Shown here: piece after piece, positions 1-13,812 of the stretch
How positions within the stretch are numbered: the first letter of the stretch is position 1
How the letters are laid out: the number at the start of each line of letters is the position of its first letter
Origin: Clostridia bacterium
GTDB taxonomy: Bacteria; Bacillota; Clostridia; UMGS1883
Direction: 5' to 3'
Length of the DNA: 64,000 nucleotides
NCBI GenBank assembly: GCA_017440585.1
Contig: JAFSGW010000008.1
Location: 3,976 to 67,975 of the forward strand
Notes under the pieces: model-generated
Databases searched by the model: none
What the model was told of the DNA's origin: nothing
What the model saw: only the letters and a program-made list of their open reading frames with translations
Program-made: the position numbers and the translations under genes

Positions 1-14
1 AAGAGTTTCCGTAT

Positions 15-974
15 ATGGACGATAATGAAAATATATGGGAGTATTCTTACCGAACTCAAACAAAAATGGAAATGAAGACGACCGCATATAAAGAGTATTT
101 AGGCGAGCACGAAGACCCATTTCCTGTGATGGAATATCAAGATGGAATGATTACTGTTTTAGAACCACCTCCGTTTCCACCTGCAGTTGAGGTTAATATG
201 ATTGCAGGAGATATAATTATCCCTGTGATGATAAGAAGAAAACCTTGCATGGAATACGGAGTGTTAATGTTTGAAACAGTTTCTAATGAGTGTGGTTTTA
301 ATGTTAATATTATAGTTAATGAAAAGCAAGGGACATCATCTTTTCGTATAGATAAAACATTAGATTGTAGTTTGTATGTTCAAGTGCAAAGAGAAAAATG
401 GCTTGAAGAGATACAAAGTAATAGGTTAATATCTATTATGTTAGGAGATGCTGAAATACTTAGGGCAGTTCCAAATGAAAAAGATTTAGATATGCCACTT
501 TTCAAATTAGCGCCATATATTAGATGTTATATTGAAAACTTGCTAACTATAGAACATCATACTGGTTGTAAATTTTCAACCAAGGTAAGTCAAATATCAA
601 TGAAGGATTACAATACTGCAAGAATAATGGCATCTTCTATTGAAGGCAAATGGTACTGCGAAAAGAAAGATTTTGACAATACAATTAGATGTGATTATGA
701 CAAATTACCTAAAGTTTTTTGCAGTGACAAAGATGGTCAAGATGAAATATTGGCTGTTGCTGATATTATTAACATTTCTTTATATGGGCAATGTTTTACT
801 ATTGATAAATATATAATTGGATATAAGCATGCGCGAATTAACAATTTAACTTCTGTTATAAAAAATCGGGACAAGAAGAAAAAGCAAATTCTTTTAACTT
901 TCCGTCCAATTAAGGGACATGATACCTTCTTTAAATATCAGAAATTCGAAGGAATTAGTCTTCTTTCTGAATGA
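15..974 (+). CDS. hypothetical protein on the AT-rich element arm; the N-terminus may extend upstream of the window
   Basis: 319-aa ORF with AT-rich codon usage like the rest of the island. No in-frame stop upstream within the window and no convincing RBS at nt 15. No recognisable motifs. Followed by hairpin repeat copy A. Confidence 0.45.
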   Translation: MDDNENIWEYSYRTQTKMEMKTTAYKEYLGEHEDPFPVMEYQDGMITVLEPPPFPPAVEVNMIAGDIIIPVMIRRKPCMEYGVLMFETVSNECGFNVNIIVNEKQGTSSFRIDKTLDCSLYVQVQREKWLEEIQSNRLISIMLGDAEILRAVPNEKDLDMPLFKLAPYIRCYIENLLTIEHHTGCKFSTKVSQISMKDYNTARIMASSIEGKWYCEKKDFDNTIRCDYDKLPKVFCSDKDGQDEILAVADIINISLYGQCFTIDKYIIGYKHARINNLTSVIKNRDKKKKQILLTFRPIKGHDTFFKYQKFEGISLLSE

Positions 975-987
975 TGCGTATAACAAG

Positions 988-1039
988 AAAAATCCGTATT
1001 ACTTCAAGGAAAATGAGCCAAGGAGAATACGGATTTTAG
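988..1039. repeat. 52-nt imperfect hairpin repeat, copy A (AGAAAAATCCGTATTACTTCAAGG-N-ATGAGCCAAGGAGAATACGGATTT)
   Basis: 11-bp stem AAATCCGTATT/AATACGGATTT around a ~25-nt loop, followed by a T-run. A near-identical copy (2 mismatches) lies at 3402..3452. Confidence 0.8.
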
Positions 1040-1093
1040 TTTTTTAATATGTAGGACTATGTAATAGAGAGCCTGCTATATTAAGGAAAATAA

Positions 1094-1122
1094 TTGACGA
1101 AAAAAGGGGATTGTTATATAAT
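1094..1122 (+). promoter_or_regulatory. sigma-A-type promoter for the two-gene module (TTGACG-17 nt-TATAAT)
   Basis: TTGACG at ~1094, a 17-nt spacer and TATAAT at ~1117, about 33 nt upstream of the RBS GGGGAG and the ATG at 1155. Confidence 0.6.
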
Positions 1123-1154
1123 ATTATTGAGTACATAAGAAAGGGGAGCGAGAT

Positions 1155-2411
1155 ATGATTAACATACCTGCTTCGTTTAAAAATGACCATGAGGATTATA
1201 TAACAGTTCCTGTACTTAAGGAGTTTGTTAAAACACATAATGTAAAGACTAATGTTTCGGAAAAAAGAGAAAATCTCTTTGATAAAATAATAGAATTTGG
1301 TAATGAAAGTGAAGAAAAAGGCGAACTTGTGTTGGACTGGATTGACTATGTTGTACAGGAAGGCATTAAAGATATACAGCTTCACTATGCTCCGTTGCCC
1401 GATAATATGAGTATGTTGGCGAAAGATAATGGGAAATTGTTAAATCATATTTCTGCATATGTTGATAAAAGCGTAAGTAGGCACCTCTGTCAAAATGTTT
1501 ACGGAGAACATTTTGTTCTTATTGATGCTAAAACAGAAAAATCTCGAGCAGGCGAAAAGATAGTATTCATTTTTTGTAAAAGCTTGTATGTTCATGACCC
1601 TAAGAAGAACATTACAAAGAAAATCGATTATCCTGTAATTGCAGAGTACTATAAAAAAGGGGAGTGGCTTCTTGTAAAAGCCAAGCCAAAAAGCAATTTG
1701 TATATTTATGAAAATAAAGAATTTAATCTTGAAAAAGCCCAATTAACAACAACCGAAAAGGAAACAAAGAAGATTGTGGATATGGTTAAAAAGATTTTGT
1801 CTGTTCAAGAGGTGAATGGGCGAGGTGTGGAATATGACTTGAAAAATAGAATATTTCAATTGTTGGATAAATACACTAATACGCCAGAAGAAATAAAGGG
1901 CGTCATGGAAAATGCTGATAGTTCAGTTCTTGAAATATCGAAAAAGATAAGTGACTTATGCTTTGTTGAAGGTAAATGCGGTATTCCTGAAAATATGAAG
2001 AAAGATATTGATGATGATATAAGAAACATATTAGAAAAATATTTATCGATTAATTGGAAGGATAAAGATGTTTTTGTGAAGGATAGGGATGCATATCCAG
2101 TAAAGTTAAGTGCCACAGATGAAGAAGAGTCAAAGGTGGAGCAGACAGCCGCTGCATTAGAACCGTTGCAGACAAAAGCGTTGTTTTTTGATAATAAGAA
2201 AATGTTGTACAAGAATAAGAGTTGTGATGGAATTGTGTTTAGGTGGAGAAGAATCAATCCTATCAATGGTCAAAAACTAATGTTTCCTGTGAAAATGTCG
2301 GCAAATGGTAGAGGTATATGCACGTTTAAATTTACAGAGTATACCGTTAAGGAGGATATTGAAAATGTTATCTTCTCAATTATTGAAACTGGAGAAAATA
2401 CTGAGTCATGA
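1155..2411 (+). CDS. hypothetical 418-aa protein, first gene of the cassette-like module; possible SAP-like helix pair at the N-terminus
   Basis: Strong RBS AAGGGGAG 7 nt before the ATG. No Walker or other catalytic motifs seen. Its 3' end overlaps the downstream gene by 47 nt. Confidence 0.7.
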   Translation: MINIPASFKNDHEDYITVPVLKEFVKTHNVKTNVSEKRENLFDKIIEFGNESEEKGELVLDWIDYVVQEGIKDIQLHYAPLPDNMSMLAKDNGKLLNHISAYVDKSVSRHLCQNVYGEHFVLIDAKTEKSRAGEKIVFIFCKSLYVHDPKKNITKKIDYPVIAEYYKKGEWLLVKAKPKSNLYIYENKEFNLEKAQLTTTEKETKKIVDMVKKILSVQEVNGRGVEYDLKNRIFQLLDKYTNTPEEIKGVMENADSSVLEISKKISDLCFVEGKCGIPENMKKDIDDDIRNILEKYLSINWKDKDVFVKDRDAYPVKLSATDEEESKVEQTAAALEPLQTKALFFDNKKMLYKNKSCDGIVFRWRRINPINGQKLMFPVKMSANGRGICTFKFTEYTVKEDIENVIFSIIETGENTES

Positions 2412-3387
2412 ACAGATTGACAGAATAGAAAGTTATATTACCTCTTTTTCGACAAATACTAAACTCACAGCTTCTAAATTTGCTATGGATATGCAATTTG
2501 ATATTGCACAAGCACGAAAAGTATTAGATGTGTTAGTAGATATTGGAGTGTTCAGGTTTAGCTTTATAGTACGGTGTCCATCATGTGGACTATTACTTGA
2601 ACCTGTAGAAGATATAACAGACATAGAATCACAAATTACTTGTTATGGTTGTGATGTAGAAAGTGATATTAGTACCGATGATGTAGAGGTAATATATACA
2701 TTAAAAGAAGTCCCTTTTGTTGAAGGGCAACAGAGTTATCAAATCGAAAGGTCAGAGACGTCTGTTGTCCTAAACGAAGACTCTCTGACAGCTTTTTTGG
2801 AATTACACGATTATAATTCAAACTTAGTTTTCTACAATCCTACACAATCAGAGGAGGATGTTCTTATAGAAAAATACAACGATATATTCTCTAAACATAA
2901 AACTACAACAGCTAAGGGAAAAACATTGGAAGATTTGGTAGCTACATTGTTCAATACTTGTAAGCATTTTAGAGCGACGACTGGTATGCGACTTCAGCCA
3001 AATCAAATTGACTGTTATGTTAGGAATAAGTTGTTTGCTCCAGGAGTGCCAGGCTTGACGGGTATAGATAGCTTTATGATAGAGTGCAAAAATGAAAAGA
3101 GACCACCTACAGCAACTTATTTCAATAAATTACACAGTGTTTTAAGAGTTGCAGGTAAGCACTTTGGGATTATAGTAAGCAAGGCATCTGCACCTAGTAC
3201 GTTTGTTAAACTTGCAAATCAAATCTTCTTAAGAGATGATATCGTAATCATTTCAATAGATAAGGATGATTTGGAAAACATAATTGTAAATAAAAATAAC
3301 CTTTTAGAATGTATAGGACGAAAGGTTAGCGAGGTAACAGTAAATGCAACAAAAGACTTAGTAGAATTGGGATTATACGATTGCTGA
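2365..3387 (+). CDS. Zn-ribbon + Mrr-type (PD-(D/E)xK) restriction-endonuclease-like domain protein, second gene of the module
   Basis: The track ORF 2305..3387 contains an internal ATG at 2365 with RBS AAGGAGG about 9 nt upstream. CxxC...CxxC lies at residues 71-96. The C-terminal stretch reads LEDLVATLF...NQIDCYV...FMIECKNEK...GIIVSKASAPSTF...IVIISIDKDDL, matching the Mrr_cat/restriction endonuclease family order with D216 and E240-x-K242. Confidence 0.7.
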   Translation: MLSSQLLKLEKILSHEQIDRIESYITSFSTNTKLTASKFAMDMQFDIAQARKVLDVLVDIGVFRFSFIVRCPSCGLLLEPVEDITDIESQITCYGCDVESDISTDDVEVIYTLKEVPFVEGQQSYQIERSETSVVLNEDSLTAFLELHDYNSNLVFYNPTQSEEDVLIEKYNDIFSKHKTTTAKGKTLEDLVATLFNTCKHFRATTGMRLQPNQIDCYVRNKLFAPGVPGLTGIDSFMIECKNEKRPPTATYFNKLHSVLRVAGKHFGIIVSKASAPSTFVKLANQIFLRDDIVIISIDKDDLENIIVNKNNLLECIGRKVSEVTVNATKDLVELGLYDC

Positions 3388-3401
3388 TTAACATGAGTTA
3401 A

Positions 3402-3452
3402 AGAAAAATCCGTATTACTTCAAGGCAGATGAGCCAAGGAGAATACGGATTT
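3402..3452. repeat. 52-nt imperfect hairpin repeat, copy B
   Basis: Near-identical to 988..1039 and lies immediately after the stop of the nuclease-like gene. Confidence 0.8.
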
Positions 3453-3458
3453 GTTATA

Positions 3459-3644
3459 TCATCCTGTCTTTCTTTCTTGATGGCTGTTAAGGATTTCTTC
3501 CAGTAACAATAATTTTTGAGATTTAGGACAGGACAAACTGTTGAGTTGAGCTGTGATTGCTTCAATATGCATTGTTGTAACCCTCTTTTTCAACTCTTCA
3601 ATTTTCTCCGATGTAGTCGGATAATGTACGATTATGTTCATCAC
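3459..3644 (-). CDS. small hypothetical protein (61 aa) downstream of the primase
   Basis: ORF only. The RBS AAAGGAGGG abuts the ATG with poor spacing. Confidence 0.3.
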   Translation of the reverse strand: MMNIIVHYPTTSEKIEELKKRVTTMHIEAITAQLNSLSCPKSQKLLLLEEILNSHQERKTG

Positions 3645-3696
3645 TGCCCTCCTTTCTAAAGTGTATGAACGGAGGATTGTACATTATTTCTACAAA

Positions 3697-3780
3697 GGGT
3701 AATTAGGGTAAATTTCTACCGAAAATTTCTTAATTTTTAAAATTTTCTTTATTTCTTTTAGAGAAAGATTTACCCTAATT
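3697..3780. repeat. long-range inverted repeat (TAGGGTAAATTTCT ... AGAAAGATTTACCCTAA) in the primase 3' intergenic region
   Basis: About 14-nt complementary arms separated by ~50 AT-rich nt, between the primase stop (3799) and the small ORF. Confidence 0.5.
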
Positions 3781-3798
3781 TCACTATACGGAGAAAAA

Positions 3799-5202
3799 TT
3801 AATTTTTTAATCTTTGTCTACGAGAGTTGTTATCAGAATAACAATTTTTCATCCTTTCCACAAATGCATTGACTTCTTGAATGTATTCAGTTTCTACAGT
3901 CAAGTTGTAATAATAATCGCTTGATTTATGGGCTTCTAAGCCATAGTAGTCAAAAAGTATTTTGGCTATATTATGTGACTTTTCAGCATGCAGTTTATTT
4001 TCTCTGCACCAAGCCATATATTCTGCATTAAAATCGGAACGCAAAGTTTTGCCGACTCCAATATTACAATAATGCTCAACGAAAGTGAGTAGAGTATTAT
4101 TGTCAGCAATATACTTAATTCTGTTGTTTTTAATAGATTCACTTTCAGTGAATTTATATCCTCTATCTATAGCATTTTTAAAATACTGTATGCATGCACT
4201 TGCAATAATATCTTTTTCTGTCAGCATTTTTTCTAACAAATATGGATCACGTTTTTCATTAGGAATAATATTTTTGCAATGTATAATATTAAATCTCTCA
4301 TATACATGACCCCCTGTATCTCCGCCAAACTTGGGCAAGTCATTACAGTTATACCAAAGGAAACCTTGGTATTTAAAAGAAAACTGAGGTTTATATTTGA
4401 CATTAGCGAATATTTCATCACCTCCCGTTAACTCTTTGAGAATATTAATTTCTCCAACACGAGCATAGGACATATCGCCACAACCAGCTAAACGTTTATT
4501 GTGTAACGGAGCTGTTCCGAATGTATCGTTAAGATTTTTTAAATCTATAGAGATACTGTTATGCTTGCCAATTAAGGATATAATAAGTTCTCTTAACTGT
4601 GTCTTGCCAGTATTGCCAGGACCTACTAACATTAATAGTTTCTTAAATTTATATCCGGGTACATTACTTAATATAGCACCCATGTATTCAAGCAAAAATT
4701 GCTTAGTCAGTTCGTCATCGCCAATAAGGTCTTGGAGATACTGTTTGAAAACAGGTGCATCATTCAAATCTGCATTATGAATATAATTGCAAGGGATTTG
4801 AATGGTGGACAATATATCCTTGTTGTGAGGCAGAAGCTCATTAGTATCTACTTTTAGAATGCCATTTTTAAAATTAATGATATTTTCGTCTCTGTTAAAA
4901 TGTCTTTCAGCTACGGTAAAGTTGGTTTTAAACTCATCATATACGGCTTCCCAAAGTTTCTTCTTTCTGATTTCAACAGGAATAAATTCCTTTATAAAAG
5001 CTTTGAAATCAGTATCAGAAACAGACATATATACACCATGGCTATTATAGATATAAATACTTGTTGGTGTAATTATTATAGGGTGGTTTTCCTTAATGTG
5101 CATATAAAGCAGTTGTGTATTAATGTGACGTTTGTCGACTTCGTCCCTGAAAATCCAAGAGGCATTTTCAAAATCGATTTTCAAATTAAATTTATTGTAC
5201 AT
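3799..5202 (-). CDS. phage/plasmid primase, P4/D5 family (primase-helicase with NTPase domain)
   Basis: Walker A LVGPGNTGKTQ and D5_N/primase-C-like architecture. Start chosen at the internal ATG 5202 (MYNKF...) with RBS GGAAAGG; the track ORF extends to 5250 without an RBS. Confidence 0.8.
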   Translation of the reverse strand: MYNKFNLKIDFENASWIFRDEVDKRHINTQLLYMHIKENHPIIITPTSIYIYNSHGVYMSVSDTDFKAFIKEFIPVEIRKKKLWEAVYDEFKTNFTVAERHFNRDENIINFKNGILKVDTNELLPHNKDILSTIQIPCNYIHNADLNDAPVFKQYLQDLIGDDELTKQFLLEYMGAILSNVPGYKFKKLLMLVGPGNTGKTQLRELIISLIGKHNSISIDLKNLNDTFGTAPLHNKRLAGCGDMSYARVGEINILKELTGGDEIFANVKYKPQFSFKYQGFLWYNCNDLPKFGGDTGGHVYERFNIIHCKNIIPNEKRDPYLLEKMLTEKDIIASACIQYFKNAIDRGYKFTESESIKNNRIKYIADNNTLLTFVEHYCNIGVGKTLRSDFNAEYMAWCRENKLHAEKSHNIAKILFDYYGLEAHKSSDYYYNLTVETEYIQEVNAFVERMKNCYSDNNSRRQRLKN

Positions 5203-5322
5203 ATGACAACCTTTCCGCATATTGCCAAAGCCTGTACACAACTTTGACAATATGCTTAAAAAAATTTTTTTTTCTTGGGTGCGCCCCCTATATAATAAAT
5301 ACCATATTTTTTATGTGTCAGT

Positions 5323-5351
5323 GCTTGAAAAATTGTATGCAATATGATATA
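5323..5351 (+). promoter_or_regulatory. putative promoter TTGAAA-17-TATACT for the 5385 gene
   Basis: Hexamers with a 17-nt spacer sit ~35 nt upstream of the RBS AAAAGGGGTGG, divergent from the primase. Confidence 0.45.
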
Positions 5352-5384
5352 CTTTAGCTTGCATACAACAAAAGGGGTGGAAAA

Positions 5385-6428
5385 ATGACTGATATTAAGG
5401 GAATTTCTGAACCGTTATATTTCTATTACAGAATAAACACTGTAACGAAGATGGAGACATTTATTTTAAGAGGAAAGCCTATAACTGATGATTTGGAAGA
5501 AATGTATTACTGTTTTCCGAGCGATATTGAAATGCCATTGGGGACTATTTTTTCAATCATTGGTGGGGTAACAGAGAACATCCTACTTTCAATATCAATG
5601 GAAGATACATTAAAGAGAAACGAAGAATATTTAGAGAAATTTGAACAAATAGAAAACATTGAGCTTTCGTTACAGGCTTTTTTGCTTTGTGCAAGTCTAA
5701 ATGCAGATTATAGTGATATTAACTCGAAAGAAAATATTGCTATCTATAATTTAAACAGGTTTATTAGTGAATGTGTGGCTAACTACAACTATGCTACAAA
5801 TGACTATTTAGAAAAAGTTATATTAGCAAATTCTATACCATTCCCGAAATTCGATAGAATTATTGTTGATTATTCTTATCTAAAAAGAAAAGGGGAGTAT
5901 AGTGATGAAGATATGAAAAATTTTTTAGATAATAAAATGCCGTTTCAAAAACAATGGAGTGAATGGGTAGACGGATTAAATATAGAAAAATACGAATACT
6001 ATTCTGTAGATACAGTGAGTGGGTTTTTAGCGACATTATTAAAAGTGATTTTTGATAATCGAAAGGTTATCAATATCTGTGAAAACTGTTGTTGTTATTT
6101 TGTTCCATTAAAAAGAAGTGATGAAAAATATTGTGTAACTAATAAGTATGCAGGTGAACAAGATTGCAAAATGGCAGTAAGAATAGAAAAGCAACGAAAT
6201 AGATTATCTTTGAAGCAAAGCCATATCGACAAAATGGAACGGAGCGTTAGGTCAATGCTATATTATCGTGTAAACAGTGCATTGCCTCGCAACCAAATTT
6301 CGCAAAAAGAATATGGTAAAATTTGCGAAGAGATACATTCATATAAGAAACGAATAGAAGAAGGCTTATGTAGCATTGAAGAATATGAGTTGTTTTTAAA
6401 GAAGTTTTTTAAAAGGAAATACAAATAG
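5385..6428 (+). CDS. hypothetical protein with C-terminal Cys cluster (CENCCCYF...C...C), element-borne
   Basis: 347-aa ORF with a good RBS. Cysteine-rich segment ICENCCCYFVPLKRSDEKYCVTNKYAGEQDC. No family recognised. Confidence 0.6.
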   Translation: MTDIKGISEPLYFYYRINTVTKMETFILRGKPITDDLEEMYYCFPSDIEMPLGTIFSIIGGVTENILLSISMEDTLKRNEEYLEKFEQIENIELSLQAFLLCASLNADYSDINSKENIAIYNLNRFISECVANYNYATNDYLEKVILANSIPFPKFDRIIVDYSYLKRKGEYSDEDMKNFLDNKMPFQKQWSEWVDGLNIEKYEYYSVDTVSGFLATLLKVIFDNRKVINICENCCCYFVPLKRSDEKYCVTNKYAGEQDCKMAVRIEKQRNRLSLKQSHIDKMERSVRSMLYYRVNSALPRNQISQKEYGKICEEIHSYKKRIEEGLCSIEEYELFLKKFFKRKYK

Positions 6429-6429
6429 A

Positions 6430-6472
6430 AAAAGCACATTATCATCGAAAAAAATGATAGTGTGCTTTTTGT
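6430..6472 (+). terminator. rho-independent terminator
   Basis: AAGCACATTATCAT...ATGATAGTGTGCTT hairpin followed by TTTTT. Confidence 0.7.
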
Positions 6473-6588
6473 TTGCTGGTTAAAAGGTTATTTTGTTGTT
6501 AAGGAGCGTTAAGAGGCTCACAGGGGATTTTTAAATACGTACTTGGGAAACGGGTGCGGGGGAAAGATTATTCGCCTTAAAAAGGGTG

Positions 6589-6876
6589 TCAGGAGTTTTT
6601 CTCCTTGTCGAAATAATTAAGAATGTTGCAGATGATGGCAATTTCTTCTTCGGTTAAGCCGTCTAATGATAAGGTTCTTTTGTTGTCAACCTCTAATAAA
6701 TAGTCGGTGGAGATACGGAACAGCTTTGCCATAGCAATGATATGCTTCATGGCAGGGACAGAGGTTTGGTTTTCCCATGCTAATACACTCGTCCTTGCAA
6801 TACCTAACTTATTTGCTAAGTCTGCCTGACTATAATTATATTGTTCTCTTAACATTTTAATGCGTTCATGTATCAT
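6589..6876 (-). CDS. XRE-family HTH transcriptional regulator (Cro/CI-like)
   Basis: MLREQYNYSQADLANKLGIARTSVLAWENQTSVP is a typical HTH_XRE segment. RBS AAAGGGTGGA. Confidence 0.85.
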   Translation of the reverse strand: MIHERIKMLREQYNYSQADLANKLGIARTSVLAWENQTSVPAMKHIIAMAKLFRISTDYLLEVDNKRTLSLDGLTEEEIAIICNILNYFDKEKNS

Positions 6877-6950
6877 TCAAATCCACCCTTTCTTATCATA
6901 ATTGTACACAATGTATTGTTATTTATACACAACATTAAAAGATGTGTATA

Positions 6951-6980
6951 TTGACAAAATAAAAAGGAATGTGTTATTAT
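6951..6980 (+). promoter_or_regulatory. putative promoter TTGACA-18-TATTAT for the SLH-protein gene
   Basis: Hexamers ~30 nt upstream of the ATG at 7012, in the divergent XRE/SLH intergenic region. Confidence 0.4.
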
Positions 6981-7011
6981 TTAGAAAGAAATTAAGAAAG
7001 GTTGTGACTAA

Positions 7012-9636
7012 ATGAAAAAATTTGTATCAATGGCAGTGATTATTTGTATGATGCTTAGTTTGTGTTTAGTGCCTATGGCATCAGGAGTACAGACATTTTG
7101 GGATGTGCCTGAAAGCCATTGGGCATATTCCCATGTAATGAACATGGTTGAAAGAGGTGTTGTATCAGGCTACCCTGACGGAGGATTCCATCCTGATGCA
7201 TACTTAACACGTGCAGAAGCGGCTACAATGATTGCAAAAATTGGAGGAAGTCAGAATTCTATATATTCAGGATTTTATGCTGATGTAACACAGAACGATT
7301 GGTTTTGTAATTATGTTGAAGGTGTAAAGCAGTATTTTAACAGCTATACCGAAAGCAATGGAACGGTAAATTTCCGACCTAATGATTACGCCACAAGAGA
7401 AGATGTAATTGTTGCATTGATGAAGCGAAATTCGAGCCAAGAGCTTTATGAGGTAAAAAGTCCTACAACAGCAATGACATATACAGATTTTGCGAATGTA
7501 AGAAAAGAAAATCAGCCATATTTTGAAGAGGCAATAAACCAAGGAATAGTAACAGGTTATGCAGACGGAACTGTTCGTCCTCACGGTAACTTGACACGTG
7601 CAGAGATGGTTACACTGTTATCTAAAATTTATGGAGTTCCATTGACTCCCGAAGAAATGCTTGCGTCAGGGCAGATGTCATATACTTTTGGGTGTACTTT
7701 AGAGGAATTTATTGAAAGATACAATAATGCCGTAAGTGCAAATTATGACATTCTTTTACAAGAGGATAGTTCTCCAACAAAAGAGGCAGATTTACTTATT
7801 GAAAAAGCCACAAAACCGTCAGATATGTATGAGGGCTGGTACAATTTTATTAACTTCAGTAAAGCTATTGAGTCATTTGACTTTGGTAGCATAAATAATT
7901 GTCAGGGGTATTTCCTTGGTAACGATTCATGGGGAGGGCTTCACTTCTTTGTAATTTGTAAGAACAACAGAGTTGTGTGGATTTCAAGAGAAGGATGGAA
8001 AGCAGAAAATAAATTTAAAACAGCATGTATGATTATTGCTTCCATGGGCACTAGCTATGAGGACGCTTGTAATATCATAAAAATGAAAAAAGAAAATCCC
8101 TACTTTACACGTGTAGGTAATGCTTGTATTGATGTTAGCAACAGCAGTTTTACATTGGCTGATATCAACGAAATTCAAAAAGTACAGTTTGGACTTGCTG
8201 TAGCAAAGCAAGGTGAAGAATTAGGAGCACTTGACATTACTATTGATAAACTCATTGAAAAGTATAATGCTAATATTAAGCAATGTTTTAAATACATAAC
8301 GGTAGATACTAATCAAAAATGGTCAGAGGACTACATGATTAATCCTAATGGTCTTGTAAGAGAAGAACTTCATAAGTACGATGGAAAATTGGTTGAAGTA
8401 AACAGATATTTTGCAGGAACTTTTGTGGCATATACTGACAAACAAAACCGTGTAATAGAAATAATTCCGCATACAGAATACGCCATGGGTAGCATACATG
8501 TTAATGATGACCCTAAGGTAATAGACATTTCAAATGCCGTACATATTTCGATGATTATGGCTTTAGAAAATATATCATTTTCCGAAGCAAAAGTTTATTA
8601 CGAGAAAATGCAGTCGGGAAGAATTACAAAGAGCAGTACTGTTAATTATGACTCGGAAGGATTTAAATCCATATTGGAACCAAAAGCACAACCAGGGACA
8701 ACTACAATTTCCGAAGAAAAAGAATATACACTTCGTAAACTGACAGATACATATGTATACAAGTCGTCTGTAACTCCCAATGGATATTATATGTTAAAAG
8801 TGTCAGGTATGACTGAATTCAAAGATGATATTTATTTCATCTATTACGAAAATCGTTATGATGATGGATTATACGTTTGCAAATTAGATGTTGAAAGTGG
8901 AAAAACAAGTAAGTTTTTTGACCCTTCTAATCTTGAATATGAGGGAGAATATCAAGGTGAAGACGTGGAATTTATGGATTTCTGTGCAACACAGGTGTTT
9001 TATGACAGAGAAAACGATAAGCTCCTTATGGCTGGAAGTTTCCGAGAAGCGGAAGATGAAGACGGAGAAAGAATAAATGTCCAGAACAACACTTTTGTAT
9101 ATGATATAACAAGCGGAAAAGCAAAATTCTGCTGTGAATTCATTGGAGGAAAGCATTATATTTACGGAGTGAAAGACAATTGTGTTATCCTTAGTGGTGG
9201 AGAAAGCATTCAATTGAAAAATGGATATTGGGTGGATATGGACACACAAAAAGTTACCAAGAGTTACTCGGGAGAACATATGATGGAGCATAATGGTGTA
9301 ACATACAGAATGAATTATAATTGTGTTCAGCGTAAATATGATGATAACGATAAGTTTTATGACCTTGTAAATATAATTGCCTTTAACGGAGATGATTATG
9401 AGGACAACTATATTGCTATCGGTGACGGATGTTATTATATTTACGATGCAGAGGGCAGCATTAATGGTTCAATATATAAATACTATGTCGAAGATGAAGA
9501 GGGGATAGAACTTATAACGAATAGTCCCGTAAAAGAGCTCGATGATGTGGATAAAACATTTTTTGCTATCAATGAAAATTGTTTTGTTTTCTACGACCAT
9601 GACACACAAGCATTTTATGCTTTAGAAGCAAATTAA
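7012..9636 (+). CDS. secreted SLH-domain cell-surface protein (signal peptide, 3 SLH repeats, large uncharacterised C-terminal region)
   Basis: N-terminal signal peptide, then three SLH motifs of the form FxDV...HWA...GYPDGxFxP...LTRAE, then ~650 aa without recognised domains. Confidence 0.8.
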   Translation: MKKFVSMAVIICMMLSLCLVPMASGVQTFWDVPESHWAYSHVMNMVERGVVSGYPDGGFHPDAYLTRAEAATMIAKIGGSQNSIYSGFYADVTQNDWFCNYVEGVKQYFNSYTESNGTVNFRPNDYATREDVIVALMKRNSSQELYEVKSPTTAMTYTDFANVRKENQPYFEEAINQGIVTGYADGTVRPHGNLTRAEMVTLLSKIYGVPLTPEEMLASGQMSYTFGCTLEEFIERYNNAVSANYDILLQEDSSPTKEADLLIEKATKPSDMYEGWYNFINFSKAIESFDFGSINNCQGYFLGNDSWGGLHFFVICKNNRVVWISREGWKAENKFKTACMIIASMGTSYEDACNIIKMKKENPYFTRVGNACIDVSNSSFTLADINEIQKVQFGLAVAKQGEELGALDITIDKLIEKYNANIKQCFKYITVDTNQKWSEDYMINPNGLVREELHKYDGKLVEVNRYFAGTFVAYTDKQNRVIEIIPHTEYAMGSIHVNDDPKVIDISNAVHISMIMALENISFSEAKVYYEKMQSGRITKSSTVNYDSEGFKSILEPKAQPGTTTISEEKEYTLRKLTDTYVYKSSVTPNGYYMLKVSGMTEFKDDIYFIYYENRYDDGLYVCKLDVESGKTSKFFDPSNLEYEGEYQGEDVEFMDFCATQVFYDRENDKLLMAGSFREAEDEDGERINVQNNTFVYDITSGKAKFCCEFIGGKHYIYGVKDNCVILSGGESIQLKNGYWVDMDTQKVTKSYSGEHMMEHNGVTYRMNYNCVQRKYDDNDKFYDLVNIIAFNGDDYEDNYIAIGDGCYYIYDAEGSINGSIYKYYVEDEEGIELITNSPVKELDDVDKTFFAINENCFVFYDHDTQAFYALEAN

Positions 9637-9660
9637 CGAAAGAAGAGGAGATAAAGAAAA

Positions 9661-10317
9661 ATGGCAAAGATGGATGAAATTTTAGGTAAAGCAAAAGACA
9701 TGGCAAGTGATGCTATGGAAAAAGCAAAAGAGTATGATTATAAAGGAAAAGCAGAAGAACTGAAAGAAAAGGCAGCAGAAACAGTTGAAAAAGCAAAGGC
9801 TTATGATTATGAGGCGAAGGCAAAAGAGATGTCTGAAACTGTTAAGAATTATGATTATAAGAGCGAAGCTGAAAACATTAGAAATGGTGGCATTAAATAT
9901 TTTTGGAATAAGCATAAGAAGTTAGCAATTATAGTATTAGTTGTATTAATAATTGGTGTTATTAAATTGTTTAGTGGTAATGGTAGTGATGCAATGTTCA
10001 TAAGAAATGATGATACGGCTGTGGACATTGCAATTGACCGTACATATAAAGCAGTAGGCGGAAAAGACCCTCAGTTTGTATCAGCTGACATTATAGAAAG
10101 AAACAAAAATAGTAACGGATATATAATTGAAGTTATATGGAAGGAAGACACAGCATATAGGTTTACAACTAACTTTGTCGTGTTTGTAGGCATCAAGGAT
10201 GATTCTGACAAAAATAACATTCAGTATAGCTACAACTATCTCTTTACACAAAGTGAAAATTATGAAAAAGAATTAGTCCCGAAATTAAAAGCTGAAGTAG
10301 ATTGGGATAATCAGTAA
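9661..10317 (+). CDS. membrane-anchored protein with three N-terminal (A/K)K-x-YDY(K/E) repeats
   Basis: Repeats KAKEYDYKGKAEE / KAKAYDYEAKAKE / VKNYDYKSEAEN, then a TM helix LAIIVLVVLIIGVI, then a ~110-aa extracellular domain. Good RBS AAGAGGAG. Confidence 0.6.
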   Translation: MAKMDEILGKAKDMASDAMEKAKEYDYKGKAEELKEKAAETVEKAKAYDYEAKAKEMSETVKNYDYKSEAENIRNGGIKYFWNKHKKLAIIVLVVLIIGVIKLFSGNGSDAMFIRNDDTAVDIAIDRTYKAVGGKDPQFVSADIIERNKNSNGYIIEVIWKEDTAYRFTTNFVVFVGIKDDSDKNNIQYSYNYLFTQSENYEKELVPKLKAEVDWDNQ

Positions 10318-10370
10318 AAGAGAATAAAATTAATATTTGAATAGCAATAATTGAAAAACACATAAAATAT

Positions 10371-10400
10371 TCCCCTGAATTGTTGGGAGTTCAGGGGGTG
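10371..10400 (+). terminator. hairpin terminator after the 218-aa gene
   Basis: CCCCTGAA TTGTTGGGAG TTCAGGGGG followed by a T-rich tail. Confidence 0.55.
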
Positions 10401-10614
10401 AGACTTTTGCTCAGAATTGTATTGGAAGATGATTCAATAGAAGTAGACGATATGATGGAACAAAAACTTATTGAAATTGCAAATCATATAAATGCGATTA
10501 TCGCTATTGTGTGCGAATATCCGCAATGTGACGAATGTGTTGTTCAGTTGAACGAATGCAGAAAAAAGATTAGAAAGTGTTTTAGATAAAACAAATTAAT
10601 AACTCCCACTAAGA

Positions 10615-10656
10615 GGCTGATATGGGTATAAATGATACCTGTATCAGTCTTTTTTA
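10615..10656 (+). terminator. hairpin plus T6, putative terminator
   Basis: CTGATA...TATCAG stem followed by TCTTTTTT. Confidence 0.45.
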
Positions 10657-10764
10657 ATGGCATTTAAGGAAAGTTTTTGCTTTTTGAGGAATTTAGGAGA
10701 ATAATTAAGTTTGGGAGCCGTTATGATAGTATTGTATCAATCTACTTTTAAGGAGTTATTAATT

Positions 10765-12483
10765 ATGGAAAACAAGAAAATTGCTGTCTATTCAAGAAAG
10801 TCAAAGTTTACTGGCAAAGGAGAAAGTATTGAAAATCAGATTGAATTATGTAAGGCTTATATAAAGCAGAAAAATCCAAGTATTACAGATGAAGATATTG
10901 TTGTGTATGAGGATGAAGGCTATTCGGGGAAGAACACTAACAGACCACAATTTCAGCAGATGATGAAGGATGCGAAAGGAAAAAAGCTGAAAGGAATAGT
11001 TTGTTACAGATTAGACCGTATAAGCAGAAGCGTAAGTGACTTTACACTGCTGATTACAGAGCTTGACGAATACGGAATGAGCTTTGACTCTATTAATGAA
11101 CAGTTTGATACATCCACATCAATGGGAAAAGCCATGATGTATATTTGCTCAATTTTTGCACAGTTGGAAAGGGAAACAATTGCAGAGAGAATAAGGGACA
11201 ATATGCATGAGCTTGCAAAAACGGGCAGATGGCTTGGCGGAAATACTCCCACAGGGTATGAGAGCGAAAAGATTGTAGAGAGAATAAACATAAACGGCAA
11301 AAAGATGGAGGCATTTAAACTTAAAACCATACCCGAAGAAGCGGAAATAATAAAATTGATTTATGGTAAGTTTATTGAATTTAACAGCCTTACAAAGACA
11401 GAGACGTTTTTCTTGCAGAACCATATTAAAACAAAGAACGGAAAAGACTTTACGAGATTTACCATAAGGACAATACTACAAAATCCCGTATATATGATTG
11501 CGGATGAAGATGCCTGGAAATACTTTGAGGATTTGGGAGTTGAAATATACTCGGAAAAAGAAAAGTTTGATGGTGTACATGGCTTAATTGGCTACAATAA
11601 AACCTTGCACAGAACAGGTAAAGCCAATATAGTAAAAAGCATTGACGAATGGATAATTGCAGTAGGCAAGCATAGGGGAATTATATCGGGTGCTGACTGG
11701 GTAAAGGCACAAAGACTTTTGGAGCAGAATGTGTCAAAGGCGTATAGAAAGCCAAGAAGTCATACAGCTTTACTATCGGGATTATTGGTATGTGGGCATT
11801 GTGGTGGCTTTATGCGACCGAAGGTATACAACAAGGATTTTGAGGGCGGAGAAAAAAGATTTGGCTATTTGTGCGAAACTAAGGAAAAGAGCAGAAGACA
11901 TAATTGTGATATGAAAAATCCCAACGGAAATACTTTAGATAGAGCTGTTTGTGAAGAAATAAAGAAGTTGTCCGAGCATGACAGCGAATTTATAACGCAG
12001 TTGGAAAACAGCAAGAAGAAAATTGTATCAAGTAGTGACGAGATAGACATGCAGATTGATGCTTTAGAAAAGAGTATTGGAGAAAAGCAGAAGCAAATTA
12101 ATAAACTTCTTGAAGCTATGGCAAAGGCTACAGGGGAGTTTTCTAATGATTATATAAATCAGTATATAGAAGAAATAGGCGGAGAAATTAAAAAAGCTGA
12201 ACAAAGACTAAAAGAGTTGAAGAGTATGACAAGAGAGCATGAGTTATCAGATAGTGAGTTTGATATATTGAAAGATATTTTAAAATCCTTTGCAAATACC
12301 TTTGAACATATGAGCATTGAGCAAAAGAGAGCTGCCATAAGAACATTTGTTAAAAAGATTGTTTGGGATGGGGAAAATGTGCATATGTATATGTATGGAA
12401 GTGACGAAAATTACAAGTTTGAGGTGGATTTTGACGGCGAAGAAAAAGGAGCCGTTGCGAGGGGGTTGAAAACGAGGTTTTAA
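10765..12483 (+). CDS. large serine recombinase (SpoIVCA-like, resolvase N-domain + recombinase domain + Zn-ribbon + coiled coil)
   Basis: IAVYSRKSK...GESIENQ places the catalytic Ser near the N-terminus. Further segments are GIVCYRLDRISRS and CGHCGGFMRP. Start is the internal ATG 10765 with RBS AAGGAG. The stop TAA shares a base with the ATG of the sigK 3' segment. Confidence 0.9.
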   Translation: MENKKIAVYSRKSKFTGKGESIENQIELCKAYIKQKNPSITDEDIVVYEDEGYSGKNTNRPQFQQMMKDAKGKKLKGIVCYRLDRISRSVSDFTLLITELDEYGMSFDSINEQFDTSTSMGKAMMYICSIFAQLERETIAERIRDNMHELAKTGRWLGGNTPTGYESEKIVERININGKKMEAFKLKTIPEEAEIIKLIYGKFIEFNSLTKTETFFLQNHIKTKNGKDFTRFTIRTILQNPVYMIADEDAWKYFEDLGVEIYSEKEKFDGVHGLIGYNKTLHRTGKANIVKSIDEWIIAVGKHRGIISGADWVKAQRLLEQNVSKAYRKPRSHTALLSGLLVCGHCGGFMRPKVYNKDFEGGEKRFGYLCETKEKSRRHNCDMKNPNGNTLDRAVCEEIKKLSEHDSEFITQLENSKKKIVSSSDEIDMQIDALEKSIGEKQKQINKLLEAMAKATGEFSNDYINQYIEEIGGEIKKAEQRLKELKSMTREHELSDSEFDILKDILKSFANTFEHMSIEQKRAAIRTFVKKIVWDGENVHMYMYGSDENYKFEVDFDGEEKGAVARGLKTRF

Positions 12484-12821
12484 TGTACTTAAGGCATGAG
12501 AAAAAGTTCAATTCCCAGATTTCCCTTTCGGAGCCTATAGGCTTTGACCAGGAGGGTAACGAAATAAGCCTGATGGATATTCTCATAGGAGACGGAGAAG
12601 ATGTATGCGAAAAGGTTGACAGAAGCGAAAAGCTTAAAAAGCTTTTTGAAAAGGTGAGGGCTATTAAGGATGCGAGGGAAAAGGAAATAATATACTTGCG
12701 TTACGGTTTGTCGGGTGGTGAGCCCATGACACAGAAGGAGGTTGCAAAAAAGATGGGAATAAGCCGCTCATATGTGTCAAGAATAGAAAAAAAGGCGATT
12801 TCTCACCTACGTGAAAGTTGA
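12483..12821 (+). CDS. sigK: 3' segment of interrupted sporulation sigma factor gene sigK (regions 3-4 only)
   Basis: EPIGFDQEGNEISLMDIL...GISRSYVSRIEKKAI is closest to B. subtilis SigK (PIGQDKEGNEISLIDVL...GISRSYVSRIEKRAL). Regions 1-2 are missing. In-frame homology (VENEVLM vs IENEILM) extends ~7 codons upstream of the ATG into the recombinase 3' end, so the true junction is near 12455-12465. Confidence 0.85.
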   Translation: MYLRHEKKFNSQISLSEPIGFDQEGNEISLMDILIGDGEDVCEKVDRSEKLKKLFEKVRAIKDAREKEIIYLRYGLSGGEPMTQKEVAKKMGISRSYVSRIEKKAISHLRES

Positions 12822-12873
12822 CATTTAATTTTTAAGAGAGTATAATTAACTGCAAATGACAAGGAGGATTACC

Positions 12874-13812
12874 ATGGAAGGTCTTTTGGTTATTATTGAA
12901 AAGATAGGCTACATCGGTATTATGATACTGATAGGCTTTTTATGTGAAAAAACAGGCTTTGTTAAAAACATTGCAAACTCGGTTTCGGGTATTATTAAAA
13001 ATATTACCTTGCCCTGCTTATTGCTTACCTCGCTTATAAGTAACACCCTTGATGCCTCTAAGGCAAAAAATGGTGCTCTGATTGTGGGAATGGGGTTATG
13101 TGCCATTGTGGTAATGATGCTTCTGGGAAACCTCTGGGGAAAGCTTTTAAAGCTGGACACAGGCAAAAGAGGCATACAGATTGCAATGGGAAGCTTTGGC
13201 AACGTTGCCTTTTTAGGCTACCCTCTCATACAGGCACTTTTGGGACCTGAGGGGCTTTTATATGCAGTTTTTTACAACCTCATAAACGATGGTCTTCTGT
13301 GGAGCTTTGGCTTAAGTGCCATAAGCGGTGAAAAGGGCATAAAGAAGCTTAAAAATATGCTTAACATATGCACTCTTTCCTTTGCGGTGGGGCTTGTGAT
13401 GCTTATTTTGGGGTTAAAGCTTCCTTCCATGCTGCAGGACTCACTTGCATCGGTTGGCAGTGCAACAACACCCCTTTCCATGCTCTTTATAGGTGCAACA
13501 ATGGCACGTGCGGATATTATAAGTGCACTTAAACGCCCTGCGGTTTATCTTTTGACCTTTACAAAGATGGTGTTTATGCCTCTTGTTATTATAGGTGTGC
13601 TTGCGGTATTTTTCAGAGGCGTTATGAACATAACTGCCATGATGACCCTTGTATTGCAGGTTGCAATGCCTGCACAGACAATGGTTGCAATACTTGCAAA
13701 GGAGTACGACCTGGACTCAAAGTACGCGGTGGAGGTTATATTCATAACAACGGTTTTTGCTCTTGTGAGTTTGCCGGTTATATATCAGTTTGCATTTAAC
13801 GTTCTGGGATAA
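12874..13812 (+). CDS. AEC-family (auxin efflux carrier/malate permease-like) transporter
   Basis: Polytopic membrane protein with the AEC pattern. Internal ATG 12874 is preceded by AAGGAGG. Confidence 0.75.
   Translation: MEGLLVIIEKIGYIGIMILIGFLCEKTGFVKNIANSVSGIIKNITLPCLLLTSLISNTLDASKAKNGALIVGMGLCAIVVMMLLGNLWGKLLKLDTGKRGIQIAMGSFGNVAFLGYPLIQALLGPEGLLYAVFYNLINDGLLWSFGLSAISGEKGIKKLKNMLNICTLSFAVGLVMLILGLKLPSMLQDSLASVGSATTPLSMLFIGATMARADIISALKRPAVYLLTFTKMVFMPLVIIGVLAVFFRGVMNITAMMTLVLQVAMPAQTMVAILAKEYDLDSKYAVEVIFITTVFALVSLPVIYQFAFNVLG

What the first reader, a model, noticed from the sequence alone, without database searches (positions are those of the whole stretch)
1094..3452. Cassette-like two-gene module: unknown 418-aa protein coupled to a Zn-ribbon + Mrr-type PD-(D/E)xK nuclease, a candidate undescribed defence or abortive-infection system
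The module has its own consensus promoter (TTGACG-17-TATAAT). Gene A (1155..2411) is a 418-aa protein with a SAP-like N-terminus and no recognisable enzymatic motifs. Gene B (2365..3387) starts 47 nt inside the end of gene A behind AAGGAGG, which implies translational coupling. Gene B has a helical N-terminal region, a CxxC...CxxC zinc ribbon (residues 71-96) and a C-terminal Mrr_cat/restriction-endonuclease-like domain. That domain has the canonical D (D216, nt 3010) ... E-x-K (E240/K242, nt 3082-3090) arrangement and the family-typical G-rich and hydrophobic blocks. A nuclease effector joined to an unknown partner, on a hairpin-bracketed cassette inside a mobile, phage-derived element, matches the architecture of anti-phage systems. 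The partner fits no system I can name. Its C-terminal ~100 aa could be a small beta-barrel reader domain; that is speculation.
Basis: partly seen in the sequence, partly recalled or inferred. Interest (0 to 1): 0.85.

Follow-up and report, generated by a model that had tools for sequence, protein, structure and literature searches.

The report
RdgC-fold sensor plus nuclease defence pair
Two overlapping genes on a mobile island in a gut Clostridia genome form a conserved, unnamed pair that looks like a new anti-phage system: the first protein has a DNA-clamp-like (RdgC/RexA-type) fold, and the second carries either a restriction-type nuclease or, in relatives, a membrane-spanning tail.

Summary
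The promoter, both ORFs, the 47-nt overlap behind AAGGAGG, the CxxC...CxxC zinc ribbon, the D216/E240-x-K242 motif and the two flanking hairpins are all present. The four cysteines and D/ExK are invariant in 37 homologs.

In all 44 loci with downstream DNA, A is followed by an overlapping partner carrying B's N-terminal domain. The C-terminus is the nuclease in about three quarters and two transmembrane helices in about a quarter.

The pair sits in prophage accessory positions and mobile islands. Here it follows an AbiGii homolog and a KAP NTPase (PADLOC candidate PDC-S49).

Pfam, NCBIfam and PADLOC do not recognise either protein above threshold, PHROGs gives B only a function-unknown family, and no paper describes the pair.

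Best reading: an unvalidated Rex/PANGU-like sensor-effector abortive-infection system. New variant of a known kind.

The parts
985..1036 (+). Upstream copy of the 52-nt direct repeat. It forms a stem-loop followed by a T-run and is the likely terminator of the AbiGii-like gene.
1094..1122 (+). Sigma-70-type promoter-like site TTGACG-17-TATAAT (11 of 12 positions).
   Evidence: function inferred
1155..2411 (+). Gene A, 418 aa. Helical N-terminus, then an RdgC/RexA/CENP-N-class alpha/beta fold with a helical insert. Most conserved block is KLSATDEEESKVEQTAA..EPLQTKALFFDNKKMLYK (residues about 316-352). Proposed sensor/activator.
2349..2355 (+). AAGGAGG Shine-Dalgarno sequence of gene B, inside the coding sequence of gene A.
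2365..3387 (+). Gene B, 340 aa, overlapping A by 47 nt. Carries the adaptor domains and the effector domain.
2365..2709 (+). B residues 1-115: winged helix-turn-helix plus a four-Cys zinc ribbon (C71, C74, C93, C96). This is the part shared by all partners of gene A, so it is the proposed A-docking or DNA-binding adaptor.
2845..3384 (+). B residues 161-340: PD-(D/E)xK restriction-endonuclease-fold domain with invariant D216 (nt 3010-3012) and E240-C-K242 (nt 3082-3090).
3401..3452 (+). Downstream copy of the 52-nt direct repeat. Stem-loop with A-run and T-run on either side, possibly a bidirectional terminator.
15..974 (+). Neighbour, not part of the pair: C-terminal part of a 443-aa AbiGii-like protein. 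Shows that the pair lies in a defence cargo region.

Best explanation
The two genes form one functional unit, most likely a prophage- and island-borne anti-phage system of the sensor-plus-effector (abortive infection or exclusion) type.

Gene A is a soluble protein with the RdgC/RexA/CENP-N fold, a class whose characterised members bind DNA non-specifically as clamps or dimers. I infer that A monitors a DNA state changed by infection, such as incoming or replicating phage DNA, recombination intermediates or damaged host DNA. It may instead sense a phage protein.

Gene B is translated in step with A from one promoter. Its N-terminal winged-helix plus zinc-ribbon module, the only part present in every partner, is inferred to dock onto A and possibly onto DNA. 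Its C-terminal domain is the executioner. Here it is a PD-(D/E)xK DNase that would cut DNA once licensed by A. In about a quarter of relatives it is a two-helix membrane tail that would damage the membrane instead.

Shown: gene structure, folds, conserved catalytic residues, strict pairing, effector exchange and genomic context.
Inferred: DNA binding by A, the A-B contact, activation rather than inhibition, and the anti-phage phenotype.
For: (1) Strict pairing. All 20 loci from species-representative genomes and all 24 viral contigs that include downstream DNA have a partner with B's N-domain overlapping A's 3' end by 28-61 nt. Pairwise identities of A and of B's N-domain correlate at r = 0.91.
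(2) Effector exchange on a constant adaptor. The nuclease is replaced by two predicted TM helices in L004, L027, L033, L037, L039, L049, L053, L054, L056, L057 and L059.
(5) Context. In this island the pair follows a KAP NTPase (PADLOC PDC-S49, 2e-50) and an AbiGii homolog. Elsewhere it sits between tail genes, before the terminase, or between the lysis genes and the integrase of Clostridium phage vB_CpeS-CP51. Neighbours include portal, terminase and capsid genes, DNA methylases and type I/III restriction genes.
(6) A carries a nonsense mutation (L022, L023) or a frameshift (L038) while B stays intact with its catalytic residues. This fits A as an activator better than A as an antitoxin.
Against: - There is no experimental phenotype.
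- PADLOC (2023 models) does not recognise the pair, so its defence role rests on context and architecture only.
- A has no detectable sequence similarity to RdgC, RexA or YejK, so DNA binding is inferred from fold alone.
- A is mildly acidic overall (pI about 6). Only its first beta-module is basic, at pI 9.3.
- The A-B contact was not modelled.
- The loci with a disrupted A could be recent decay, or polarity could silence B.
- Neighbouring defence genes were seen in only some loci. Many neighbours are ordinary phage structural genes.
Confidence: 0.55

Rival explanations
1. Toxin-antitoxin or addiction module. B (nuclease or membrane toxin) is constitutively toxic and A is its protein antitoxin. 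The main role is to stabilise the prophage or island, with any phage defence being secondary.
For: The module is a two-gene, translationally coupled operon on mobile elements. The effector is potentially lethal. Many toxin-antitoxin systems also defend against phage.
Against: - A (about 400 aa, highly conserved, two-module fold) comes first and is far larger than typical antitoxins.
- Loci with a nonsense or frameshifted A retain an intact B.
- In the analogous PANGU systems neither gene alone was toxic (10.64898/2026.04.06.716658).
- No labile-antitoxin features are evident.
Confidence: 0.15
2. Direct restriction-like nuclease complex. A encircles or binds foreign DNA (for example modified, unprotected or linear DNA) and recruits B to cut it, giving non-abortive immunity in the manner of a type IV restriction enzyme.
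For: B's catalytic domain is closest to restriction and nicking endonucleases and to Mrr-like AF1548. B has its own winged helix. Methylases and restriction-modification genes occur among the neighbours.
Against: - About a quarter of partners replace the nuclease with a membrane tail on the same adaptor. A membrane tail cannot restrict DNA, which argues for a signal-to-effector logic.
- No cognate methylase is consistently linked.
- The Pfam Mrr_cat threshold is not met.
Confidence: 0.15
3. The pair serves the element's own life cycle. An RdgC-like recombination or replication modulator and a structure-specific nuclease would serve prophage or island replication, excision or recombination rather than immunity.
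For: RdgC modulates RecA, and phage RdgC-like proteins are annotated in recombination modules. In this island the pair lies next to the primase gene.
Against: - The position of the pair varies: between tail genes, before the terminase, after the lysis genes, or in islands. This is typical of accessory cargo, not of a core module.
- The family is small and patchy, with 230 representatives at 50% identity among 1.84 billion proteins.
- The membrane-tail variants do not fit a DNA-processing role.
- Disrupted copies persist in otherwise intact contexts.
Confidence: 0.1

Closest known systems
Lambda RexA/RexB and Rex-like exclusion systems (Sbash gp30/31, CarolAnn, Butters)
   Same: - A two-gene prophage-borne exclusion module.
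- The second protein is the effector, membrane-embedded in Rex and in about a quarter of the present family.
   Different: - There is no sequence similarity between the A family and lambda RexA (hhalign probability 0.1%).
- The partner here has a winged-helix plus zinc-ribbon adaptor that RexB lacks. In most loci its effector is a PD-(D/E)xK nuclease, not a membrane protein.
- The pair is not linked to a cI-type immunity region.
- The hosts are Firmicutes.
PANGU systems (YejK-like nucleoid-associated protein plus toxSAS or TM effector; bioRxiv 10.64898/2026.04.06.716658)
   Same: - A bicistronic operon of a DNA-clamp-like sensor and a modular effector, including a TM-effector type, acting by abortive infection.
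- The YejK N-domain is a weak structural relative of RdgC and Cenp-N (PMC11229321), the same relatives found for A.
   Different: - None of 58 members of the A family hits Pfam NA37/YejK or RdgC even at E 0.1.
- hhalign of the A profile against E. coli YejK gives no match.
- The ten largest PANGU effector clusters listed do not include a wHTH-Zn-ribbon-nuclease.
- The genes here overlap by 28-61 nt.
E. coli RdgC and phage RdgC-like proteins
   Different: - Only 10% identity. There is no Pfam RdgC hit in 58 members and no hhalign match.
- A has an extra helical N-terminus and a long helical insert.
- A is always paired with an effector gene.
Mrr/FokI-type PD-(D/E)xK nuclease domains, as found in type IV and IIS restriction enzymes and in CRISPR or CBASS effectors such as Can2 and NucC
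   Same: The same catalytic fold and the same D...ExK arrangement.
   Different: - Below the Pfam Mrr_cat threshold. The weak sequence matches are rather to DUF2130 (14 of 37 members) and Mrr_cat (3 of 37).
- A different N-terminal architecture, with no Mrr_N, CARF or SAVED domain.
- Obligate pairing with gene A.

Membership tests
RexAB exclusion system | The first protein is a sequence homolog of RexA. | tested here: not met
   hhalign of the 58-sequence A profile against lambda RexA gives probability 0.1%. PHROGs gives A only a marginal hit (E 0.041) to an unrelated bacteriocin-immunity family.
RexAB exclusion system | The first protein has the RdgC/IML3/CHL4-class two-domain fold. | tested here: met
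RexAB exclusion system | The partner is a polytopic membrane protein (RexB). | tested here: not met
   The window's partner is a soluble nuclease. About a quarter of relatives have two predicted TM helices, but these sit on a wHTH-Zn-ribbon adaptor that RexB lacks.
PANGU (NAP-sensor defence) | The sensor is a YejK/NdpA-family protein (Pfam NA37). | tested here: not met
   None of the 58 A-family members has an NA37 hit at E <= 0.1. hhalign against E. coli YejK gives probability 0.08%.
PANGU (NAP-sensor defence) | The sensor gene is in an operon with a variable effector, including TM effectors. | tested here: met
   The genes overlap in 44 of 44 loci, and the effectors are a nuclease or a two-TM tail.
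PANGU (NAP-sensor defence) | The sensor binds DNA and relocates when the genome is damaged, then activates the effector. | not testable with these tools
   Needs EMSA, ChIP, microscopy and infection assays.
PD-(D/E)xK nuclease superfamily (gene B, C-terminal domain) | Restriction-endonuclease-like alpha/beta fold with a conserved D...(D/E)xK. | tested here: met
Pfam Mrr_cat (PF04471) | Score above the Pfam gathering threshold. | tested here: not met
   The window protein gives no hit. Three of 37 homologs give sub-threshold hits, best E 0.0065.
Known anti-phage systems in PADLOC-DB v2.0.0 | Either protein matches a PADLOC model. | tested here: not met
   No families for A or B at E <= 1. DefenseFinder models and models newer than 2023 could not be run.
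Type II toxin-antitoxin module | The toxin is lethal without its cognate antitoxin. | tested here: inconclusive
   A is disrupted while B is intact in L022, L023 and L038. This argues against the feature, but expression and toxicity were not measured.

The most novel reading that the evidence does not exclude
The A/B pair is a third, independently evolved lineage of 'DNA-clamp-fold sentinel plus licensed effector' immunity, alongside RexAB and PANGU. An RdgC-fold protein reads the state of DNA in the infected cell. Through a dedicated winged-helix/zinc-ribbon adaptor it switches on interchangeable killers, either a DNase or a membrane tail. This would make RdgC-fold proteins a general infection-sensing scaffold in bacteria.
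Probability: 0.35. Interest if true: 0.75.

Novelty: new variant of a known kind. Interest (0 to 1): 0.62.

Why it matters
If the pair protects against phage, it adds a new, sequence-unrelated family to an emerging class of defences in which a DNA-clamp-like, RdgC-fold protein is the sensor (RexA, PANGU's YejK-like proteins).

It would show that the same sensor scaffold can drive a restriction-type DNase as well as membrane effectors, through a distinct winged-helix/zinc-ribbon adaptor.

It would annotate about 230 sequence clusters of 'hypothetical' proteins in gut and rumen Clostridia and their prophages. It would also give Rex-type sensing a tractable Gram-positive model, since the pair is present in the cultured Clostridium perfringens phage vB_CpeS-CP51. 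What RexA actually senses has remained unclear since Rex exclusion was first described.

Tried and rejected
- Sequence family searches for both proteins (Pfam, NCBIfam, PADLOC, PHROGs) gave nothing above threshold for A. B gave only phrog_18586, of unknown function, at 1e-6.
- Profile searches of the A and B families against PDB sequences gave no significant hit.
- hhalign of the A profile against lambda RexA, E. coli RdgC and E. coli YejK gave no similarity. This is a weak test because each template was a single sequence.
- A profile search with B's N-domain for more effector types returned only 7 short proteins (134-179 aa), some of them fragments. One of these, P0164, sits in phage-like contigs without gene A. 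This search was uninformative for effector diversity.
- The cassette idea: the 52-nt hairpin repeat was not found in JGI metagenomes. It occurs only as the same two copies in the identical islands L008-L013. Homologous modules in L001, L006 and L017 have no flanking repeat, and L002 has only a weak 37-nt one. The hairpin bracket is therefore a local feature of this island and not a hallmark of the family.
- Rfam found nothing in 1..13000.
- AFDB50 Foldseek was unavailable.
- No plasmid in PLSDB encodes gene A.
Full report
**1. What is in the sequence**

- A sigma-70-type site, TTGACG-17-TATAAT, lies at 1094..1122 and matches 11 of 12 positions.
- Gene A runs 1155..2411 and encodes 418 aa.
- Gene B starts at the ATG at 2365, 9 nt after AAGGAGG (2349..2355), and ends at 3387, encoding 340 aa. 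It overlaps A by 47 nt.
- The longest mechanical ORF for B begins at 2305. All homologs, however, start with M(L/S/Y)xSQL aligned to 2365, so 2365 is the real start.
- A 52-nt direct repeat, 96% identical, brackets the pair at 985..1036 and 3401..3452.
- Each repeat copy folds into a stable stem-loop, at -19.3 and -22.2 kcal/mol with z-scores of -5.9 and -4.7. There are no further copies in the window.

**2. Gene B**

Searches and family:
- Pfam, NCBIfam and PADLOC give nothing above threshold. PHROGs gives only an unannotated family at 1e-6.
- A search of 5.8 billion proteins found 41 homologs.
- In an alignment of 37 of them, C71, C74, C93, C96, D216, E240, C241, K242, N243, E244 and K255 are invariant.

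Predicted structure:
- The AlphaFold2 model has mean pLDDT 85.
- It shows a helical/winged-helix N-terminus, a beta-ribbon holding the four cysteines, a disordered linker (residues 120-133) and a C-terminal alpha/beta domain.

Weak sequence signals across the family:
- DUF5939 for the N-terminal part, in 19 of 37 members.
- DUF2130 in 14 of 37 members and Mrr_cat in 3 of 37, best E 0.0065, for the nuclease.
- TFIIE_alpha in 2 of 37 members.

B is therefore a wHTH plus zinc-ribbon plus PD-(D/E)xK protein. 'Mrr-type' is acceptable as a loose description. It is not a Pfam assignment.

**3. Gene A**

Searches and family:
- No library recognises A.
- It has more than 200 homologs in the word-indexed search.
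- An exhaustive profile search of 1.84 billion cluster representatives found 230 representatives at E <= 0.001. Nearly all are about 400 aa and none shows fusions.
- This is a small, compact family. In the genome scan it occurs in Clostridia (Oscillospiraceae, Lachnospiraceae, Ruminococcus and others) plus one Paenibacillaceae MAG.

Predicted structure:
- The AlphaFold2 model is confident, with pLDDT 90.7 and pTM 0.87.
- It has a helical N-terminus, a five-stranded sheet module (about residues 73-215), a helical insert (about 222-300) and a second alpha/beta module (about 313-416).
- Foldseek against viral models puts phage RdgC or 'exonuclease' proteins on top, with E about 1e-4 and probability 1.0 but low global TM-score.
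- The 'SAP-like' N-terminus is only a predicted helix-loop-helix with no sequence support.

**4. The fold in the literature**

- The crystal structure paper on lambda RexA (PMC11077077) reports that RexA's closest structural relatives are RdgC, IML3 and CHL4. It also reports that RexA and its actinophage homologs are dimeric, non-specific DNA binders working with the membrane protein RexB.
- The YejK structure paper (PMC11229321) finds RdgC and Cenp-N as weak relatives of the YejK N-domain.
- A 2026 preprint (10.64898/2026.04.06.716658) describes PANGU. In these systems YejK-like nucleoid proteins in two-gene operons sense phage-induced genome degradation and activate toxSAS or transmembrane effectors. 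Many other effector clusters are predicted.
- A therefore belongs structurally to a class already used twice as the sensing half of two-gene abortive-infection systems.
- At the sequence level A is unrelated to all three. hhalign of the A profile against RexA, RdgC and YejK gives probabilities below 0.3%. None of 58 family members hits Pfam RdgC or NA37 at E <= 0.1.

**5. Are the two genes a unit?**

Yes.
- Nearly every examined contig carries the pair with the overlap; only L005, where IS200 truncates the partner, departs from this.
- In 23 loci from species-representative genomes and 26 IMG/VR viral contigs, every locus that includes downstream DNA (20 and 24 loci) has a partner with B's N-terminal domain. 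The partner starts 28-61 nt before A's stop.
- Pairwise identities of A and of B's N-domain correlate at r = 0.91 over 210 pairs.

The C-terminus of the partner is not constant.
- In 11 loci (L004, L027, L033, L037, L039, L049, L053, L054, L056, L057, L059) the nuclease is replaced by a charged linker and two strongly hydrophobic helices.
- In one locus (L041) the partner is the N-domain alone, followed by an unrelated ORF.

A constant sensor and adaptor with interchangeable lethal domains is the standard architecture of abortive-infection systems. It is hard to reconcile with a DNA-metabolic housekeeping role.

**6. Context**

This island:
- The window's first 12.6 kb has 31-38% GC, against 42-47% beyond it.
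- Longer copies of the same island (L008-L013) give the gene order: sigma-70 region 2-like, HTH, KAP NTPase, 50 aa, AbiGii-like (443 aa), A, B, (60 aa), D5_N/DUF5906 primase, 347 aa, XRE, SLH protein, 218 aa, large serine recombinase.
- The KAP NTPase matches PADLOC candidate PDC-S49 at 2e-50, and the 443-aa protein matches AbiGii at 5e-13. The pair therefore sits in a small defence cargo region.
- The island has no phage structural genes. 'Phage-derived' is not shown for this element.

Elsewhere:
- The pair is a prophage accessory gene set. It lies between tail-chaperone and tape-measure genes (L006), just before the terminase (L004), and next to a serine recombinase and restriction-modification genes (L002).
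- In the cultured temperate Clostridium perfringens phage vB_CpeS-CP51 it lies between the lysis genes and the integrase, as phiCP51_0027/0028, both annotated hypothetical.
- Among 147 neighbouring ORFs in 21 genomes, the commonest families are portal, terminase, capsid, ClpP, C5 and N6 DNA methylases, type I/III restriction subunits and integrases.

**7. Mechanism**

My best-supported reading is a sensor-effector system.
- A is the sensor. By analogy of fold it is probably a DNA-binding dimer or clamp, and its first beta-module is basic with pI 9.3.
- It would detect an infection-specific DNA state or protein and then license B.
- B's wHTH/zinc-ribbon module is the part that co-varies with A and is always present, so it is the likely docking or DNA-positioning element.
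- The nuclease (D216, E240, K242) or the membrane tail then executes.
- A's invariant acidic hairpin and the following basic block (ATDEEESKVEQ ... FFDNKKMLYK, residues about 320-352) form its most conserved surface and are candidates for the functional interface.

The direction of control, activation rather than inhibition, is suggested by two observations.
- A carries a CGA-to-TGA nonsense codon in L022 and L023, or a frameshift in L038, while B is intact with all catalytic residues.
- Neither PANGU gene was toxic alone in the published experiments.

Everything beyond folds, conservation, pairing and context is inference.

**8. Rivals**

- A toxin-antitoxin/addiction module (0.15). It is disfavoured by A's size and order and by the loci with A disrupted and B intact.
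- A direct restriction-type complex (0.15). It is disfavoured by the membrane-tail variants and by the lack of a linked methylase.
- An element-intrinsic recombination or replication function (0.10). It is disfavoured by the variable accessory positions, the patchy distribution and the membrane variants.

**9. The hairpin 'cassette'**

- The 52-nt repeat is real but local.
- It is absent from JGI metagenomes and is present only as the same two copies in identical islands.
- Homologous modules elsewhere lack flanking repeats, apart from a weak 37-nt repeat around the L002 module.
- It most simply reflects a duplicated terminator created when the pair was inserted or recombined behind the AbiGii gene.
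- There is no evidence that it is a mobility signal of the family.

**10. Novelty and score**

- No library or paper available here names this pair. PADLOC models date from 2023, and DefenseFinder could not be run.
- Conceptually the pair parallels RexAB and PANGU, but it fails their sequence-membership tests and has a distinctive adaptor-nuclease partner.
- I rate it a new variant of a known kind. It is unvalidated, with interest 0.62.

Noticed in passing
window 15..974 (full copy L008:3598-4926); L008:1540-3312: The gene just upstream of the pair is the C-terminal three quarters of a 443-aa AbiGii-like protein (Pfam AbiGii_2 5e-8, PADLOC AbiGii 5e-13). In longer copies of the island it is preceded by a KAP-family NTPase that matches PADLOC candidate system PDC-S49 (2e-50). 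The island's left arm is therefore a small defence cargo region.
   Followed up: partly
window 1..~12600: A low-GC island (31-38% against 42-47% beyond). It carries a D5_N/DUF5906 primase (3799..5250, minus strand), a 347-aa ORF (5385..6428), an XRE repressor (6589..6876, minus strand), an 874-aa SLH-domain protein (7012..9636) and a large serine recombinase (10711..12483) at its right end. It has no phage structural genes. L001 shows the same element type, with the A/B pair directly after the sigma-like and HTH genes.
   Followed up: partly
L022:1118-2347, L023:6001-7230, L038:6001-7408, L036:7196-8217, L005:5214-5648: Decayed copies of the pair. A has an in-frame TGA (CGA to TGA, codon 136) in two water-deer MAGs and a frameshift in a Ruminococcus MAG, while B stays intact. 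B is split in L036 and truncated next to an IS200-type transposase gene in L005.
   Followed up: partly
NC_021325.1 24453..26793 (L069:4977-7317): The cultured temperate Clostridium perfringens phage vB_CpeS-CP51 carries the pair as phiCP51_0027/0028 (annotated hypothetical) between the lysis genes and the integrase. Blautia and Coprococcus phages (PV036437, PV036435, PV036424) also encode gene A homologs.
   Followed up: partly
gene A residues ~274-311 (window ~1974..2087): Fourteen of 58 A-family members give sub-threshold Pfam MinE hits at this helix-strand segment (best E 5.7e-5, below the 25-bit cut-off). This is probably a local secondary-structure resemblance.
   Followed up: no
L014-L016 (P0164), P0162-P0167: Short proteins (134-179 aa) consisting of only the wHTH plus zinc-ribbon module of B. 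The one whose context was examined, P0164 (L014-L016), lies in a phage-like contig without gene A, next to a glycosyltransferase gene. Their role is unknown.
   Followed up: partly
L041:6139-7457: One viral contig has a 186-aa partner (B's N-domain only) followed by an unrelated 248-aa ORF with no Pfam hit and then a metallo-beta-lactamase-fold protein. This may be a third effector arrangement or a decayed locus.
   Followed up: partly
L002:8736-8772 and 11092-11128: The homologous module in L002 is flanked by an imperfect 37-nt direct repeat containing TTGACA (a promoter-like duplication). It lies downstream of a gene cluster (PEP-utilizers, metallo-beta-lactamase/Apyc1-like, PNP_UDP_1, CTP_transf_like) that looks like another defence or nucleotide-signalling locus.
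   Followed up: no
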